From NCBI GenBank assembly GCA_017998755.1, contig JAGOCL010000001.1, positions 1 through 26,386 on the forward strand: 26,386 bases of DNA. The letters run 5' to 3'. Shown here piece after piece: positions 2,446 through 8,320 of this stretch (the first letter of the stretch is position 1; each line of letters begins with the position of its first letter). The DNA comes from Spirochaetota bacterium. GTDB taxonomy: Bacteria > Spirochaetota > GWE2-31-10 > MWDO01. Below the pieces are notes generated by a model that saw only the letters and a list, made by a program, of their open reading frames with translations, had not been told where the DNA came from and made no database searches. The position numbers were made by a program, and so were the translations under genes.

Positions 2446-3452
2446 GAATAGGGATAGATGTTGATTCGGGAGAGCGTTCGTTCGACGAGTTGGTAAACGG
2501 CGCTCTAAAGTCTCTTCAAAATCTACCCGACGTTTCTCTTTATATAATTGGCAAATCTGATAGAATTCGTAAACAATTTCTAGATATCGAATCGCTTTCA
2601 AACGTCTTTTTAATCGACGCAAAAGAAGTTATCTACATGGACGAGAACCCGTTATTAAGCGTTAAAAGAAAACGCGAATCGACGGTAGTTATCGGAACTA
2701 AAGCGCTAAAAGAGAATTTGATAGATTTCTTTTTATCTCCGGGGAACACGGGAGCGACGGTCGTATCGAGCGTACTTTCCCTTGGCATGACAAGTCATAT
2801 AAAAAAACCTGCAATGGCTACTTTTTTTCCCAGAATGAACGGCGGCGAAACGCTTATGCTGGATATAGGGGCAAATCCTGAATCAAATGAAGAAAATATT
2901 TACCACAACGCTTTATTGGGTTTAGCTTACTATTCGATACTTTGGGGGAAAAAGAACCCTTCTATAGGGCTTCTTAACGTTGGAAGCGAATTTGGGAAAG
3001 GATCGAAAAATACAAAGAAAGCGTTCAATTTACTCTCTCATATTGATTCTTTCGTCGGTAACGTCGAAGGGTATAATATTTTAAACGGATCGGTAGACGT
3101 AACGGTTTGCGACGGTTTTACCGGCAATACTTTACTGAAATTTGCCGAAGCTTTTAAAGAGCTGTTTTTATACGCTTTAAAGGAAACGTTCAATTCTGAT
3201 AAAAATTCATTTAAATTTCCAAAAAATATTTTTGACACTTCGAGAGAAAAAAAGAATTTAATGTTAGATAAAATTAAAACCAAGTATTTTGGGGCGGCTC
3301 CGCTTTTAGGGGTAAAAGGAGGCGTTTTGATTGGTCATGGGATGAGCTCCGGAGAAGACGTAGAAAACGCCGTCTATCTTGCCGACCGTCTGTATAAGTC
3401 AAATTATATAGATTCAATGAATAATTATATTAACGAAAATATAAAAAAATAA
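2442..3452 (+). CDS. plsX: Phosphate acyltransferase PlsX
   Basis: Motifs SPGNTGA, LDIGAN, GLLNVG, FVGNVEG, CDGFTGN and APLLGV...HG. TTG start overlaps the rpmF stop (TTGA); rpmF-plsX is a conserved gene order. Confidence 0.9.
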   Translation: MRIGIDVDSGERSFDELVNGALKSLQNLPDVSLYIIGKSDRIRKQFLDIESLSNVFLIDAKEVIYMDENPLLSVKRKRESTVVIGTKALKENLIDFFLSPGNTGATVVSSVLSLGMTSHIKKPAMATFFPRMNGGETLMLDIGANPESNEENIYHNALLGLAYYSILWGKKNPSIGLLNVGSEFGKGSKNTKKAFNLLSHIDSFVGNVEGYNILNGSVDVTVCDGFTGNTLLKFAEAFKELFLYALKETFNSDKNSFKFPKNIFDTSREKKNLMLDKIKTKYFGAAPLLGVKGGVLIGHGMSSGEDVENAVYLADRLYKSNYIDSMNNYINENIKK

Positions 3453-3469
3453 AATATATTGAAAAAAAG

Positions 3470-3498
3470 TTGAAATAATAAAAAATATGATATATAAT
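3470..3498 (+). promoter_or_regulatory. sigma70-type promoter upstream of flaB1
   Basis: TTGAAA-17 nt-TATAAT. Confidence 0.6.
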
Positions 3499-3511
3499 TT
3501 GGATAATTAAT

Positions 3512-3538
3512 TAAAGTTTTTTTTGGATTATCCGATAT
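3512..3538 (+). promoter_or_regulatory. sigma28 (FliA)-type promoter of flaB1
   Basis: TAAA(GTTT)-N15-TCCGATAT, matching the TAAA-N15-GCCGATAA consensus, about 180 nt upstream of a flagellin. Confidence 0.85.
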
Positions 3539-3674
3539 GTATAGTAAGTTCTTATTATATCTTTAACGTTGGGGGACGGAAAAGATTAGGAGCTAAATTA
3601 ACGATGGGGGGGCGTTTATAGTTCTTTAAAATGGGGATCAATAGCGGCTCGTATGAGGCGCTTTTAATTATAAG

Positions 3675-3710
3675 CAGGTAAGGATTACCTGTAAATTAGT
3701 TTCATGGAGG
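3675..3710 (+). promoter_or_regulatory. Putative CsrA binding sites in the flaB1 leader
   Basis: Hairpin CAGGTA-AGGAT-TACCTG presents GGA in the loop; a second site ATGGA overlaps the Shine-Dalgarno (CATGGAGG). Confidence 0.7.
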
Positions 3711-3717
3711 AAACAAA

Positions 3718-4596
3718 ATGATTATCAACCACAACATGTCTTCAATCAACGCTAACCGAGTCTTAAAGTTTAACAATGTAAATGTTAACAAAGACATGGA
3801 AAAGCTGTCTTCCGGAATGAGGATCAACAGAGCTAGCGACGACGCTTCAGGTCTGGCTGTATCCGAAAAAATGCGATCGCAAATCAGAGGTTTATTACAA
3901 GCCGAGAAAAATGCTGAAAATGGAATTTCTTTTATTCAGACTGCGGAAGGATATCTTCAAGAGACTCAAGACGTAGTACAAAGAATCAGAGAATTGTCTG
4001 TTCAATCTTCTAACGGTATCTATACCGACGAGGACAGAATGTATATCCAAGTCGAAATTAGCCAGTTAGTCGACGAGATTGACAGAATAGCCAGTCACGC
4101 TCAGTTTAACGGTATGAATATGTTAACCGGAAGATTTGCTAACATTTCTAACGGAGGAACTCCTACCGCTTCTATGTGGCTTCATATCGGAGCTAATATG
4201 GATCAAAGAGAGCAAGTATACATCGGAACTATGACTTCTCAAGGATTGGGTTTGAAAGAAGCTAACGGTTTACCGCACGCGGCAAACGCGGCTTTTACTC
4301 TTTCTACTCCCGGCGGAGCTAACATGTCTATAGGTTTGATGGACTTAGCTTTAAGAAAGATTAACAAACAAAGAGCGGATCTTGGAGCTTATCAGAACAG
4401 ACTTGAACACGCTACAAAAGGTTTGTTGATAGGAGCCGAGAACTTACAAGCGGCTGAATCTATTATCAGAGATTCAGATATGGCTAACGAAATGGTAAAT
4501 TTCACGAAGAATAGTATACTGGTTCAGTCCGGAACTGCAATGCTTGCGCAAGCAAACGCTAAGACTCAGTCGGTTTTACAATTATTAAACGCATAG
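3718..4596 (+). CDS. flaB: Periplasmic flagellar filament core flagellin FlaB (copy 1)
   Basis: [14 protein letters not shown] start; [31 protein letters not shown]; [12 protein letters not shown]; C-terminal [10 protein letters not shown]. The short central region is typical of spirochete FlaB. Confidence 0.97.
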
Positions 4597-4668
4597 TTTA
4601 AAATTGTTCTTTGAAAAGAAAGTTTAGTTTTAAATCTCTACCTTGACAACGGTAGTTTGACAGACGGC

Positions 4669-4689
4669 GCCCTCCAAAATTTGGGGGGC
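4669..4689 (+). terminator. GC-rich hairpin after flaB1 (weak terminator or stabilising/processing stem)
   Basis: GCCCTCCA pairs with TGGGGGGC; an outer GGC/GCC and ACAG/CTGT extension is possible; only a short U run follows. Confidence 0.45.
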
Positions 4690-4838
4690 TATGCCTGTTT
4701 ATGAATCTTTAAGTTAAAAATATAAAGGGCGATTTTGTGGTTTTAATAGAGATTCATGCAGAACTACTTTTAAGGAGAAAACCTTAATAAAAAACCTTTC
4801 TAAAAGATTTAGAAAGCTATATCAAGGAGGGTATTTTA

Positions 4839-5693
4839 ATGATTATTAACCATAATATGTCTTCGATAAACGCCAATAACGTATTGAAGTTTAAAACAAG
4901 AGACGTTGATAAGACGATGGAAAAACTATCGTCCGGAATAAGAATCAACAGATCGGGAGACGACGCATCCAACCTAGCCGTATCGGAAAAAATGAGAGCC
5001 CAAATAAGGGGCTTAAATCAAGCCGAGAAAAACGTTCAGAACGGAGTATCTTTAATTCAAGCTACGGAAGGATATTTGCAAGAGACCGAAGACGTTGTTC
5101 ACAGAATCAGAGAGCTAGCAGTTCAATCTTCTAATGGTATTTATACGGATGAAGATAGGCAGTATATCCAAGTTGAGATTGATCAACTTGTTGACGAAGT
5201 GAACAGAATAGCGTCTCACGCTCAGTTTAACGGGATGAATTTATTAACCGGTAGATTTGCAAATTCTCAAAAAGGCGCGACTCCAACGGCGTCTATGTTC
5301 TTCCAAGTGGGAGCTAACATGGACCAAAGAGAACAGATTTATATTGGCGAAATGACTGCTAAATCTCTGTTTAAAACAGAAACAGATGGACAAGTGCTTC
5401 TTAGTACTCCGGCGGCTTCAAACATCTCCATTGGAAGAATGGACGAAGCTTTAAAGATGATTAACGAGCAAAGAGCAGATCTTGGAGCATATCAGAACAG
5501 GTTTGAAACGGCTCAAAAAGGTATTGCGATAGCTTCAGAGAATTTACAAGCGGCAGAATCAGTTATAAGAGACGCAAATATGGCGTCTGAATCTGTCAAC
5601 TTTGTAAAAGACAGCATACTGGTTCAATCCGGTACCGCAATGCTAGCGCAGGCGAATACACGACCGCAAACGGTATTACAACTGCTGGGCTAA
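4839..5693 (+). CDS. flaB: Periplasmic flagellar filament core flagellin FlaB (copy 2)
   Basis: Same flagellin N- and C-terminal motifs as copy 1; AAGGAGG RBS. Confidence 0.97.
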
Positions 5694-5800
5694 CTTTGAA
5701 AATTTAATGTTTTTTAAAGTAGAAACTGTTCTATCTTTAGTTTTTCTAATCGCCCTTTTCTCGGCGTTAACGCGCCAGTTTTATAAAACCACAATAATAA

Positions 5801-5837
5801 CTCCCGCTTCCTGAAAAGGACGCGGGAGATCTTTTAA
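5801..5837 (+). terminator. Intrinsic terminator-like hairpin after flaB2
   Basis: CTCCCGC-t-TCCT-GAAA-AGGA-c-GCGGGAG (GNRA tetraloop) followed by ATCTTTT. Confidence 0.7.
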
Positions 5838-5889
5838 AAAAGTTGACAGGGAGGGATGAGATTGCCTAAATTTTTTTAGGAGGAGAAAT

Positions 5890-6276
5890 ATGATAAACAA
5901 TGTAAATATAATAAAATCGGACAATTACGCTCAGATTTTGCTACAGCAAGCGGCGAATCGGAAGGGAGCAAAGTCGGTTGAAAGAAAAAACGCGGCAAAA
6001 GCTCTGACTCAGGATGAAATAAAAAAGCTAATAAAAAAAGAGATCCCGGGTTTGGATTCAGAAAACGCTATGGAACTTATAGGAAATTCTCAATCTCTGG
6101 AGTTATTAAATCATAAAGTTCATTTAAGGATGAATAAAGATATAAATAGGGTTATCATAACGATAGTAGATAAGGAATCCAATCAAGTAGTAAAAGAAAT
6201 CCCTTGCGAAGAGTTGCAAAATCTTGCCGCGCACCTCAAAAAAGCCGTCGGAGTTTTGTATGACAAAGAGGCGTAG
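5890..6276 (+). CDS. flaG: Flagellar protein FlaG
   Basis: C-terminal LNHKVHLRMNKDINRVIITIVDKESNQVVKEIP.EEL..LA..L motif; located between flagellin and fliD. Confidence 0.9.
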   Translation: MINNVNIIKSDNYAQILLQQAANRKGAKSVERKNAAKALTQDEIKKLIKKEIPGLDSENAMELIGNSQSLELLNHKVHLRMNKDINRVIITIVDKESNQVVKEIPCEELQNLAAHLKKAVGVLYDKEA

Positions 6277-6325
6277 AGACGCAGTTTTGCGTTAGCGATT
6301 TTTCAGTTTGGGGGGGTAATTTTGT

Positions 6326-8320
6326 ATGTCGGACGGCGTTTATATTCCAGGGTTAAGTAGTAAATACGGTTCAAGCGAATCCATAAAGAAAATTATGGAC
6401 TCGAAAAGGGAAAAGCTTGACAAACTTGAAAATGAAAAAGAAATTCTAAAAGACGAAAAGAAAATATGGAGCGAACTGAAATCTAAAGCTCAGTCTTTTC
6501 AAAACAGCGCAAAAAAAATGTACGGATTTGAAGCGCCTTTTGACGACAAATTATCGGTATCTTCAGACGAGGCCTCTTTTTCGGCAAACGTTTCTAGAAA
6601 CGCCGAGATTGGAGAGTATAGGATTAATATTAAGAAGAAAGCGGCGTCTCATAAAATTGCCGGCGCTCAATTGGAAAGGAATTATAAAATTCAATCCGGA
6701 GAGTATCTTTTTAAAATTGGCGATGAAAATTTTAAGGTAAATTTTAGCGGCGGTTCTTTGGATGATTTTGCCCAAAAAATAAAAAAAGATTCAGGCGAAA
6801 AGATCAAAACAATCGTAGCTAACGACACTTCAAAAACTCAGGTTTTTATTCTTGAATCCTCTATTTTTGGCGACGGTAATTTTATAACTTTTGAAAACGA
6901 TCTTACAAGAAACGTTTTTAAAGCTATGGGCTTTTATGAAGAGACAAATACTTTTGATAAACGAATCGCAATTGAAGATAAAACATTAGTGAATTTGTCT
7001 GAAAATAAAAGAAATTCGATTATAGATGAAAACGGTAGCCTTGTTTTAAAAACAAATGATAAATACAGAATTAACCTTCCGGAAAACGTACCTTATAAAG
7101 AAGGTTTGGTAATGACGATAGACTTGAAAACTTTAAGTTTAGACGAAGTTGAATCGTCTGAAAAAATCGATCCGACAGGACCAAATTTTTCTCAAGAAGG
7201 TTCGGTAAATATTTATGATATTGAAATAGAGGGGGAATCTTCGCTTGTCGATATACCTACTTATGAGAAAATAGAAGAGCCGGTAAAAGAGACGATTATA
7301 GACGACAAGTATGTCTCTTTAATTACCAACAAGAGAACGATAAATCTTGAGGAGCTTGATGTAAATTCGGAAGATAAGACTTTGTCTTTTGATATGAAAG
7401 ATATAATCGCTCCCGACGAGGCAATTTCTTCGGTATTAATCAATAATAATAACACTGAAAAAGTATTGTTTGCAAAGAATCTTCGATTTTACGATAAAGA
7501 AGCTCTCACTGGGGTAAAATTCCGAAACGAACTTTCGTCGCCATCCAACGCGTCTTTGACTTTAGACGGTTTGAAAATCGATCGGGAGTCAAACGTTATA
7601 AACGATTTAATCAAAGGGGTTACTCTAAATATTTTTGATAAAACGGATAGGGAAGAAACCCTGAAGATTGATAGAGACTATAATAAAATAGCCGAATCTG
7701 TTAACGATTTCATAGGGGAGTACAACCAGATACTAGATTTTATCAACAATGAAACAAACGTCGACGCTATGGAATATAGGGAAGAAGACAAAGAAAAGAC
7801 CGGGAAGCTTTCCAAAGATTATACTCTTCGTTCTTTAGTTACAAAACTTAGAGTTATAATGATGAATCCTTATCCGACGGATTTTGGGGCTGAATTGTCA
7901 AATTTAAGCCAGATTGGTATTTCTACAAACGAGTCTAATAAAGGATTTGACGCGACGAAGATGAAGGGTATTCTGGAGGTTAATCCCGATAAATTTATCG
8001 AGCAAATGGAGAAGTACCCCGCGGGAATAAAACAACTTTTTGGGAGCGACACAGACGGAGATATTCTGATAGATAACGGTATTGCGTATGAAGCCGAACG
8101 GTTGCTCAAAGCTTATACGACTAGAGACGTCGGTTATTTTGATTCGAAGACAAATTCTATTGATAATCGTATTGAAAATCAAAACAAATCAATCGACAGT
8201 TATAAAGAAGTTCTTGATAAAGAAGAGAAGGACTTGAAAGAAAAATTTTTTAAAATGGAAAAAGCCGCTCAAGAGCTTGAGGAAAACAAAAAAAGGTTCG
8301 ATAATCTAGATAATAAATAA
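6326..8320 (+). CDS. fliD: Flagellar filament cap protein FliD (HAP2)
   Basis: N-terminal PGLSSKY...; IGEYRINIKKKAASHKIA; LTLDGLKIDRESNVINDLIKGVTLNI; LSQIGIST; C-terminal coiled coil. Confidence 0.93.
   Translation: MSDGVYIPGLSSKYGSSESIKKIMDSKREKLDKLENEKEILKDEKKIWSELKSKAQSFQNSAKKMYGFEAPFDDKLSVSSDEASFSANVSRNAEIGEYRINIKKKAASHKIAGAQLERNYKIQSGEYLFKIGDENFKVNFSGGSLDDFAQKIKKDSGEKIKTIVANDTSKTQVFILESSIFGDGNFITFENDLTRNVFKAMGFYEETNTFDKRIAIEDKTLVNLSENKRNSIIDENGSLVLKTNDKYRINLPENVPYKEGLVMTIDLKTLSLDEVESSEKIDPTGPNFSQEGSVNIYDIEIEGESSLVDIPTYEKIEEPVKETIIDDKYVSLITNKRTINLEELDVNSEDKTLSFDMKDIIAPDEAISSVLINNNNTEKVLFAKNLRFYDKEALTGVKFRNELSSPSNASLTLDGLKIDRESNVINDLIKGVTLNIFDKTDREETLKIDRDYNKIAESVNDFIGEYNQILDFINNETNVDAMEYREEDKEKTGKLSKDYTLRSLVTKLRVIMMNPYPTDFGAELSNLSQIGISTNESNKGFDATKMKGILEVNPDKFIEQMEKYPAGIKQLFGSDTDGDILIDNGIAYEAERLLKAYTTRDVGYFDSKTNSIDNRIENQNKSIDSYKEVLDKEEKDLKEKFFKMEKAAQELEENKKRFDNLDNK

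What the first reader, a model, noticed from the sequence alone, without database searches (positions are those of the whole stretch)
4724..5794. flaB2 is clasped by two perfect 11-nt complements between its upstream and downstream spacers, in crossed order
Seen: upstream of flaB2 are the contiguous blocks A=AAAGGGCGATT (4724-4734) and B=TTGTGGTTTTA (4735-4745). Downstream of its stop are the exact reverse complements A'=AATCGCCCTTT (5748-5758) and B'=TAAAACCACAA (5784-5794), separated by a 25-nt linker holding a small GGCG/CGCC hairpin. The order A-B ... A'-B' is not nested. It gives a pseudoknot with two coaxially stackable helices (22 bp in total) whose loop is the whole 855-nt CDS. Two adjacent perfect 11-mers between two short spacers look unlikely by chance. 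Inference: an end-to-end RNA clasp, analogous to rRNA-flanking RNase III stems or the 5'-3' pairing of type I toxin mRNAs. It could process, circularise or stabilise the flagellin mRNA, or gate its translation. A less favoured alternative is DNA inverted repeats for flagellin phase variation. I know of no such element described for flagellins.
Basis: partly seen in the sequence, partly recalled or inferred. Interest (0 to 1): 0.82.

Follow-up and report, generated by a model that had tools for sequence, protein, structure and literature searches.

The report
Flagellin mRNA end-to-end RNA clasp
The two 11-base complements are real and belong to a conserved, co-varying pairing between the 5' leader and 3' trailer of one spirochaete flagellin mRNA; in other spirochaetes it is a loop-loop kiss between an orphan Rfam motif (Termite-flg) and the gene's own terminator, and what it does is untested.

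Summary
Observation confirmed. A/B (4724-4745) and A'/B' (5748-5758, 5784-5794) are exact complements in crossed order. They are not a dispersed repeat, and only 1 of 500 shuffles matches them. The gene is the second of two tandem flagellin genes (flaB-flaB-flaG-fliD; by synteny closer to Treponema flaB3 than flaB2).

All 13 loci of the order that carry the B core keep A:A' and B:B' at the same places and in the same crossed order, but with different sequences. Compensatory changes include U:A<->C:G and G:C<->A:U with a G.U intermediate. Cognate flanks beat permuted ones in 10,000 of 10,000 trials.

In GC-rich spirochaetes the same gene carries GGCGCGA in the loop of a 5'-UTR hairpin and UCGCGCC in the loop of its own terminator (35 of 39 loci; control hexamers 1-3). 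In termite Treponema that 5' hairpin is Rfam RF01729 Termite-flg, an orphan motif with no published partner.

Metatranscriptome contigs (one spans 4618-5805 with no mismatch) place both halves on one abundant RNA. This rules out a start downstream of B.

Best reading: a 5'UTR-3'UTR RNA clasp. Its function is inferred only (stability, translation control, or read-through). The window's copy does not score as RF01729. I found no published description of the pairing.

The parts
3470..3498 (+). sigma-70-like promoter of the first flagellin gene (TTGAAA-17-TATAAT); context only
   Evidence: In T. denticola flaB1-flaB3 form one sigma-70 operon (PMC9481697).
3718..4596 (+). first flagellin gene (flaB-a, 292 aa)
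   Evidence: Flagellin_N and Flagellin_C
4606..4616 (+). GTTCTTTGAAA, invariant motif at the start of the flaB-b leader. Complementary to the SD region. The abundant RNA begins at or just after it.
   Evidence: conservation; RNA contig starts at 4618, 4648, 4655
4659..4699 (+). hairpin T1. It looks like a flaB-a terminator but lies inside the abundant flaB-b RNA, so it may be a 5' stabiliser.
   Evidence: fold, z -4.65
4700..4758 (+). 5' hairpin P1 (arms 4700-4710 / 4748-4758) that displays A-B. Its inner local pairing competes with the clasp.
   Evidence: (I25). An enclosing stem of 8-19 bp is present in 11 of 13 loci of the order, each with a different sequence.
4724..4734 (+). block A (pairs with A')
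   Evidence: duplex -15.6 kcal/mol
4735..4745 (+). block B (pairs with B'). Positional counterpart of the GGCGCGA loop of Termite-flg-type leaders.
   Evidence: duplex -11.8 kcal/mol
4770..4787 (+). covarying hairpin presenting AGGAG (a CsrA-type GGA site by analogy)
   Evidence: (compensatory pairs)
4796..4816 (+). covarying pre-SD hairpin
4822..4831 (+). Shine-Dalgarno region TCAAGGAGGG
   Evidence: invariant
5748..5758 (+). block A'
   Evidence: identical in sister species G001
5763..5776 (+). small linker hairpin (not conserved in sequence; present in 7 of 13 loci)
5784..5794 (+). block B'
5801..5836 (+). rho-independent terminator of flaB-b (stem 5801-5828 plus U-run). It carries compensatory changes relative to G001.
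5843..5872 (+). sigma-70-like promoter of flaG (TTGACA-18-TAAATT); context only

Best explanation
A-B in the 5' leader and A'-B' in the 3' trailer of the flaB-b (flaB3-like) flagellin mRNA base-pair with each other as RNA. This clasps the two ends of the message.

Anatomy in the window: A-B sits in the loop of a 5' hairpin about 95-115 nt upstream of the AUG. It lies upstream of a GGA-presenting hairpin and the SD. A' and B' are single-stranded, just upstream of the terminator. Forming A:A' and B:B' (about -27 kcal/mol) outcompetes the inner local 5' hairpin, which costs about 8 kcal/mol to open.

This is the AT-rich version of an old spirochaete device. In GC-rich lineages, a 5'-UTR hairpin loop GGCGCGA(A) kisses the loop UCGCGCC of the gene's own terminator. 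Often a second helix, GGGAACGG:CCGUUCCC, forms right after the stop codon.

Inferred function, not shown: the clasp makes a closed, nuclease-resistant and highly abundant monocistronic message out of the flaB-flaB-flaG-fliD unit. It also brings 3'-end information to the CsrA-type translation-control region of the leader.
For: Shown:
1. Exact complements, rare by chance.
2. Same positions and crossed order, with different sequence, in all 13 B-core loci of the order. The B helix has 146 of 169 canonical cells against 130.5 +/- 4.1 when partners are permuted (0 of 5000). It shows double-sided changes (U:A<->C:G; G:C<->A:U) and a G.U intermediate.
3. Cognate versus permuted flanks score 27.9 against 20.8 +/- 1.1 (0 of 10,000). 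Real versus reversed trailer gives p = 2e-8.
4. GC-rich lineages: 35 of 39 loci with 5' GCGCGA have 3' TCGCGC (control hexamers 1-3). All 35 sit in the apical loop of a 7-15-bp hairpin. GCGCGA sits in a hairpin loop in 34 of 39. Fisher p = 7.5e-20 over 132 flagellin ORFs, not corrected for phylogeny.
5. Further compensatory variants: GCGCGU/ACGCGC and GGUGCGGG/CCCGCGCC.
6. RNA: contig 4618-5805 at depth 19.4 with 0 mismatches. flaB-a is at 3.5-5.4x, and flaG, fliD and the upstream gene are near 0.
7. A-B spacing and A'-B' spacing are anticorrelated (rho -0.86, n = 13). This is expected if both helices form in one structure.
8. A' and B' are unpaired in the local fold.

Inferred: the stabilisation and translation-coupling roles. 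They rest on the 3.6-5-fold excess of flaB-b RNA over flaB-a RNA, the adjacent GGA hairpins and the presence of CsrA in 5 of 5 relatives.
Against: - There is no structure probing or proximity-ligation data.
- Contigs are assemblies, not single molecules.
- The origin of the 5' end (TSS or processing) is unknown.
- The G.U versus A.C test for strand-specific RNA pairing is not significant overall (8 vs 9). Within the order's B helix it is 4 vs 0.
- In GC-rich lineages the kissing core is nearly invariant, so covariation there is modest.
- With no spacer between A and B in the window, both helices cannot form without strain unless the 25-nt linker spans them.
- A:A' is missing in termite Treponema.
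- Cis and trans pairing cannot be told apart from sequence.
- CsrA and FliW were not found in this 86%-complete genome.
Confidence: 0.6

Rival explanations
1. Same pairing, but in trans. The 3' trailer (A'-hairpin-B'-terminator, about 90 nt) accumulates as a 3'UTR-derived small RNA. It pairs with the A-B loop of other flaB-b leaders and gives feedback control of flagellin synthesis.
For: Covariation cannot tell cis from trans. A' and B' are single-stranded next to a strong terminator, the usual build of 3'UTR-derived sRNAs. Terminator loops are used for pairing by known sRNAs (PMC11979758, PMC3834814).
Against: No separate short RNA contig or depth step at the 3' end was seen, although contigs are a poor tool for this. 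No other target sites exist in the genome, since the other copies of the 11-mers are inside ORFs. The anticorrelated spacings fit either model.
Confidence: 0.17
2. Terminator control. The 5' hairpin loop contacts the terminator (its loop in GC-rich lineages, the sequence just before it in the window). This tunes termination and hence read-through from flaB-b into flaG-fliD.
For: B' lies in the terminator loop in 35 of 35 GC-rich loci and 5-25 nt before the terminator in 13 of 13 loci of the order. In T. denticola flaB1-flaB3 and downstream genes are co-transcribed. Purine-rich 5' arms and pyrimidine-rich 3' arms would allow the kiss to spread into the stems.
Against: A loop-loop kiss does not open a terminator stem. 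The stem extensions contain A.C mismatches. The window has its own flaG promoter-like site. RNA depth drops to about 0 after the terminator.
Confidence: 0.12
3. DNA-level feature: inverted repeats for site-specific inversion (phase variation), or two copies of one operator bound by a DNA-binding protein that loops out the gene.
For: On duplex DNA, A'/B' are inverted copies of A/B. The overall G.U versus A.C count does not exclude DNA.
Against: - The crossed order is not a simple inverted repeat.
- There is no recombinase in the window.
- There is no inversion junction in 4 RNA runs, and the locus is collinear in many DNA assemblies.
- The blocks change sequence from species to species while staying complementary, which is unlike an operator.
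- In other lineages the two sites sit exactly in the apical loops of two different covarying RNA hairpins, one of them the terminator.
Confidence: 0.03
4. Chance complementarity in AT-rich spacers.
For: A permissive score on the single sequence is not significant (26 of 200 shuffles).
Against: The strict score reaches 1 of 500. Position, order and complementarity are kept across three or more orders with changed sequence.
Confidence: 0.01

Closest known systems
Rfam RF01729 Termite-flg RNA motif (Weinberg et al. 2010, PMC2864571)
   Same: It lies in the 5' UTR of the orthologous flagellin gene. A large hairpin displays the pairing sequence (invariant loop aGGCGCGAAa = block B of GC-rich lineages). 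A GGA-loop hairpin follows, then the SD. It hits 8 termite-Treponema loci at about -122..-20 from the ATG.
   Different: The window and its whole order do not score (E up to 5-10). The loop sequence is different, and A and B share one loop. [quoted passage not shown] The terminator-loop partner is what is added here.
icaR mRNA 5'UTR-3'UTR pairing in Staphylococcus aureus (PMC3868564)
   Same: A bacterial mRNA whose 3' UTR base-pairs with its own 5' UTR.
   Different: In icaR the 3' UTR pairs with the SD, blocking translation and triggering RNase III cleavage. Here the pairing lies 95-115 nt upstream of the AUG and not on the SD. It consists of two crossed helices or a loop-loop kiss, and it is conserved across orders.
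Long-distance kissing loops between 3' CITEs and 5'-UTR hairpins of plant RNA viruses (e.g. BYDV; PMC6614841)
   Same: A 5' hairpin loop is complementary to a 3'-UTR hairpin loop a kilobase or more away, which closes the RNA.
   Different: Those are eukaryotic viral RNAs, and the kiss delivers initiation factors. No equivalent factor is known here.
Terminator loops used for base pairing (sRNA terminator loops, PMC11979758; bsrG/SR4 kissing, PMC3834814)
   Same: The apical loop of a rho-independent terminator serves as a pairing surface.
   Different: Those act in trans between two RNAs. Here the partner lies in the same transcription unit.
rRNA processing stems and 5'-3' pairing of type I toxin mRNAs such as hok
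   Same: The flanks of a long RNA segment pair end to end.
   Different: Those helices are nested and long, and they are RNase III substrates or translation locks. This one is crossed, and in most lineages it is too short (6-8 bp) for RNase III.

Membership tests
Rfam RF01729 Termite-flg | Covariance-model score at or above the gathering threshold (40 bits) | tested here: not met
   No hit in window 3300-6500 at E<=5, nor in 15 loci of the order at E<=10. Positive controls: 8 termite Treponema loci at 43-70 bits.
Rfam RF01729 Termite-flg | Located in the 5' UTR of a flagellar (flagellin) gene | tested here: met
   A-B lies 94-115 nt upstream of the flagellin ATG, inside the RNA contig.
Rfam RF01729 Termite-flg | Central hairpin with the invariant loop GGCGCGAA | tested here: not met
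   The window's hairpin loop carries AAAGGGCGATTTTGTGGTTTTA instead. It is equivalent only in position and in having a 3' complement.
Rfam RF01729 Termite-flg | Following hairpin with a GGA loop | tested here: inconclusive
   Hairpin 4770-4787 presents AGGAG at the stem-loop border and covaries. It is not aligned to the model.
cis 5'UTR-3'UTR pairing of the icaR type | Both partners are on one transcript | tested here: met
   RNA contig 4618-5805 with 0 mismatches. It is an assembly, not a single molecule.
cis 5'UTR-3'UTR pairing of the icaR type | The 3' UTR pairs with the Shine-Dalgarno sequence | tested here: not met
   The partners are 4724-4745. The SD is 4822-4831.
cis 5'UTR-3'UTR pairing of the icaR type | RNase III cleavage of the duplex | not testable with these tools
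   Needs RNA end mapping in an rnc mutant.
Invertible DNA switch (phase variation) | Simple inverted repeats flanking the segment, plus a nearby recombinase | tested here: not met
   The order is crossed. Pfam finds flagellin, FlaG, FliD, PlsX, an S41 peptidase and MurJ, but no recombinase.
Invertible DNA switch (phase variation) | Both orientations are present in reads | tested here: inconclusive
   No inversion joint in 4 RNA runs.
Loop-loop kissing complex | Complementary sequences in the apical loops of two hairpins | tested here: met
   Met in GC-rich relatives (35 of 35 and 34 of 39). In the window only the 5' partner is in a hairpin loop, and A'/B' are in linear single strand.

The most novel reading that the evidence does not exclude
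Spirochaetes have kept, since before their orders split, a closed-loop flagellin mRNA. A 5'-leader hairpin (Termite-flg and its AT-rich equivalents) must find its complement at the very 3' end of the message (terminator loop or pre-terminator strand). Only a completed transcript would then adopt the stable, translation-competent, CsrA-responsive fold. This would be a bacterial counterpart of viral and eukaryotic 5'-3' communication. It would also be the first function for an orphan Rfam motif.
Probability: 0.3. Interest if true: 0.85.

Novelty: new variant of a known kind. Interest (0 to 1): 0.72.

Why it matters
- It gives the 16-year-old orphan motif Termite-flg a concrete partner, the loop of its own gene's terminator. 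The motif's mechanism becomes testable with a handful of compensatory mutants.
- It adds a phylogenetically deep, covariation-supported case to the very short list of bacterial mRNAs whose 5' and 3' UTRs pair. As far as I could find, it is the first to use a kiss with the message's own terminator.
- Flagellin dosage in spirochaetes is known to be set post-transcriptionally (CsrA, FliW, FliS). A 5'-3' clasp next to the GGA sites would be a missing piece of that control. It may exist in cultivable treponemes (found in the isolate Treponema sp. TIM-1, L114).

Tried and rejected
1. Sigma-28 promoter idea. TTAAGTTA-N11-GGCGATTT (4709-4735) would make block A a -10 box and put the start near 4743. 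Rejected: the motif is not kept in relatives, and abundant RNA contigs start at 4618-4655.
2. Sigma-70 promoter TTTACA-18-TAAAAT at 4575-4604. It fits a start near 4611, but the -10 is lost in sister species G001. Unresolved, and not relied on.
3. GTTCTTTGAAA as a -35 box. There is no -10 at 16-18 nt in any lineage.
4. RNAduplex on whole spacers gave meaningless energies, so it was dropped.
5. A mismatch-tolerant segment score is not significant for single sequences.
6. G.U versus A.C counting as an RNA-versus-DNA test is inconclusive overall.
7. MAFFT plus RNAalifold on the 5' element predicted nothing because the alignment was too poor. The enclosing stem was shown per sequence instead.
8. 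RF01729 search of 151 Spirochaetota genomes: nothing rang anywhere, so it is uninformative.
9. Dispersed-repeat or trans-target idea: the other copies of the 11-mers lie inside ORFs.
10. Other flagellin paralogues (286-aa and 290-aa types) and phylum-level representatives show no consistent clasp.
11. The B. burgdorferi RNA-RNA interactome preprint has nothing on flaB ends.
12. The count of structure pairs on a joint alignment was not run, because it would have needed a very long typed structure string. The same counts were made in a script.

Full report
**What is there**

The window carries two tandem flagellin genes (3718-4596 and 4839-5693), followed by flaG (5890-6276) and fliD (6326-8320). 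In T. denticola this synteny is flaB1-flaB3-flaG-fliD (PMC9481697).

The four blocks are exactly as described. A is 4724-4734 and B is 4735-4745, and they are contiguous. A' is 5748-5758 and B' is 5784-5794. A 25-nt linker holding a 5-bp hairpin separates A' from B'. The genome is a 486-contig MAG from digester or wastewater habitats. Each 11-mer has only two or three further copies, all inside ORFs.

**Chance**

Strict Watson-Crick scoring of the two best matches between the two spacers gives 52, against 36.9 +/- 3.4 in dinucleotide shuffles (1 of 500). A permissive score is not significant on one sequence. The case therefore rests on relatives.

**Relatives within the order**

The order has 20 species representatives, and all carry the locus.
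- The sister species G001 keeps the 5' spacer at 96% identity. A, B and A' are identical and B' keeps 10 of 11 pairs. The terminator hairpin has changed on both arms.
- In the more distant genera, the best complementary segments between leader and trailer fall at the same places. A lies about -122..-105 from the ATG and B about -116..-97. A' lies 18-71 nt and B' 48-101 nt after the stop. They are always in crossed order but have different letters. Examples are AAAAGGGCGCATTT/AAATGCGCCCTTTT with TGTGGTTTATTAAT/ATTAATAAACCACA (L012), and AAAAAAGGTGC/GCACCTTTTTT with TTGCGGTTTTAAA/TTTAAAACCGCAA (L019).
- In an anchored alignment of the B helix (13 loci), 146 of 169 cells are canonical. Permuting partners gives 130.5 +/- 4.1 (0 of 5000). 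Double-sided changes include U:A<->C:G and G:C<->A:U, with a G.U intermediate in L020.
- Cognate leader-trailer pairs score 27.9 against 20.8 +/- 1.1 for permuted pairs inside the order (0 of 10,000). Real trailers beat reversed trailers at p = 2e-8.
- A-B is enclosed by an 8-19-bp stem of varying sequence in 11 of 13 loci.
- B' always lies 5-25 nt before a strong terminator. The linker hairpin is present in only 7 of 13 loci.
- The A-B spacing (0-6 nt) and the A'-B' spacing (3-27 nt) are anticorrelated (Spearman -0.86; -0.85 with one locus per genus). This is expected if both helices form in one three-dimensional structure.

**Beyond the order**

Eighty genome loci and eighty metagenome loci from across Spirochaetota show the same device in GC-rich dress.
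- The 284-aa-type flagellin gene has GGCGCGA(A) about 85 nt upstream of the ATG, in the apical loop of a covarying hairpin.
- It has UCGCGCC in the apical loop of the rho-independent terminator.
- Of 39 non-redundant loci with the 5' hexamer, 35 have the 3' hexamer within 180 nt of the stop. Control hexamers of the same composition occur in 1-3 loci. All 35 sit in the loop of a 7-15-bp hairpin.
- Over 132 flagellin ORFs the two hexamers co-occur with Fisher p = 7.5e-20, uncorrected for phylogeny.
- Variants change on both sides: GCGCGU/ACGCGC, GGUGCGGG/CCCGCGCC, TAGCGCGAT/ATCGCGCTA.
- About 16 of 49 loci also have GGGAACGG at about -105 paired with CCGUUCCC 6-24 nt after the stop. This is again the crossed order.
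- First-gene (286-aa) and 290-aa flagellin paralogues show nothing comparable.

**Link to a known motif**

In termite-gut Treponema loci and in the isolate Treponema sp. TIM-1, the 5' element is Rfam RF01729 Termite-flg (43-70 bits against a gathering score of 40).
- The invariant loop of its central hairpin, aGGCGCGAAa, is block B.
- Its last hairpin has a GGA loop.
[quoted passage not shown] It names no partner and no mechanism (PMC2864571).
- The window and its order do not score with the model. The window's element is an architectural counterpart, not a demonstrable member.

**RNA evidence**

Four metatranscriptomes hold the locus.
- One contig covers 4618-5805 at depth 19.4 with no mismatch. 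Others cover 4648-5766 (18x), 4655-5660 and 3987-5789.
- flaB-a contigs have depth 3.5-5.4. flaG, fliD and the upstream gene are at or near zero, so the coverage is transcript-like.
- A and B are therefore transcribed, together with A' and B', on an RNA 3.6-5 times more abundant than flaB-a RNA.
- This excludes my own first idea, a sigma-28 promoter using block A as its -10 box.
- Whether the 5' end near the invariant GTTCTTTGAAA (4606-4616) is a start or a processing site is open.

**Energetics**

A:A' is -15.6 kcal/mol and B:B' is -11.8 kcal/mol. Keeping A-B single-stranded costs the local 5' hairpin about 8 kcal/mol. A' and B' are free in the local fold.

**Mechanism**

Shown: a conserved, co-varying complementarity between leader and trailer of one transcribed unit. 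In most lineages it is displayed in hairpin loops.

Inferred: the two ends pair, in cis most simply. This gives a closed message that resists 5'- and 3'-dependent decay. It also places the 3' end beside the GGA hairpins and the SD, where CsrA-type control acts. CsrA is present in 5 of 5 relatives but was not found in this incomplete genome.

Rivals that use the same pairing are a trans-acting trailer fragment and control of termination or read-through. DNA-level explanations are unlikely, for these reasons:
- the order is crossed;
- no recombinase is present;
- no inversion joints were seen;
- the sequence turns over quickly while staying complementary;
- the sites are placed in the loops of two different RNA hairpins.

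The strand-specific G.U test is too weak to add much: 4 vs 0 in the order's B helix, but 8 vs 9 overall.

**Verdict**

The feature is conserved across several spirochaete orders and connects to an orphan Rfam motif. Function is untested. As far as the searchable literature goes, the pairing is undescribed.

Noticed in passing
window 4606-4616 (and 4640-4648); L041-L119 leaders: GTTCTTTGA(A/C)AA, followed in GC-rich lineages by CCCTCC, is invariant at the start of the flaB-b leader across Spirochaetota. It is complementary to the SD region TCAAGGAGGG. In L016, L107 and L112 it lies after a terminator-like hairpin of the first flagellin gene. It could be an anti-SD, a processing site or an unusual promoter element.
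   Followed up: partly
L041-L199 trailers (e.g. L114 about 40-60 nt after the stop): GC-rich lineages have a strongly conserved 3'-UTR hairpin with the loop CUGGACGUC between A' and the terminator. The loop holds a palindromic GACGUC core and a GGA. It could be a CsrA site or a dimerisation loop. It is absent from the window's order.
   Followed up: no
window 3607-3616 vs 4666-4675; about 3670-3682 vs 4692-4700: The first flagellin gene may have its own leader-trailer complementarity. GGGGGGCGTT pairs with GGCGCCCTCC, and AAGCAGGTA pairs with TGCCTGTTT. The second pairing recurs in L012, L015 and L021.
   Followed up: partly
window 4591-4650: In RNA contigs the flaB-a contig ends at 4590-4610 (depth 3.5-5.4). 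The flaB-b contig starts at 4618-4655 (depth 18-19). Hairpin T1 (4659-4699), which looks like the flaB-a terminator, belongs to the abundant downstream RNA.
   Followed up: partly
L010-L027, L054 (order): The spacing between A and B is inversely related to the spacing between A' and B' (rho -0.86, n = 13).
   Followed up: yes
L022, L024, L027 (genus g7): A third complementary pair, ATTTACCTAT / ATAGGTAAAT, lies 3' of B in the leader and 5' of A' in the trailer. It is nested relative to the other two.
   Followed up: no
window 3738 / 5310 (run X9): One RNA contig joins flaB-a position 3738 to flaB-b position 5310, with a short side of 21 nt. It is probably a paralogue chimera of the assembler.
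   Followed up: no
window 5801-5828 vs L011: The flaB-b terminator differs from the sister species on both arms with pairing kept, while the flanking A' and B' are conserved.
   Followed up: yes
G000 whole genome: CsrA and FliW were not found in this 86%-complete MAG. CsrA is present in all five relatives tested, including the sister species.
   Followed up: partly
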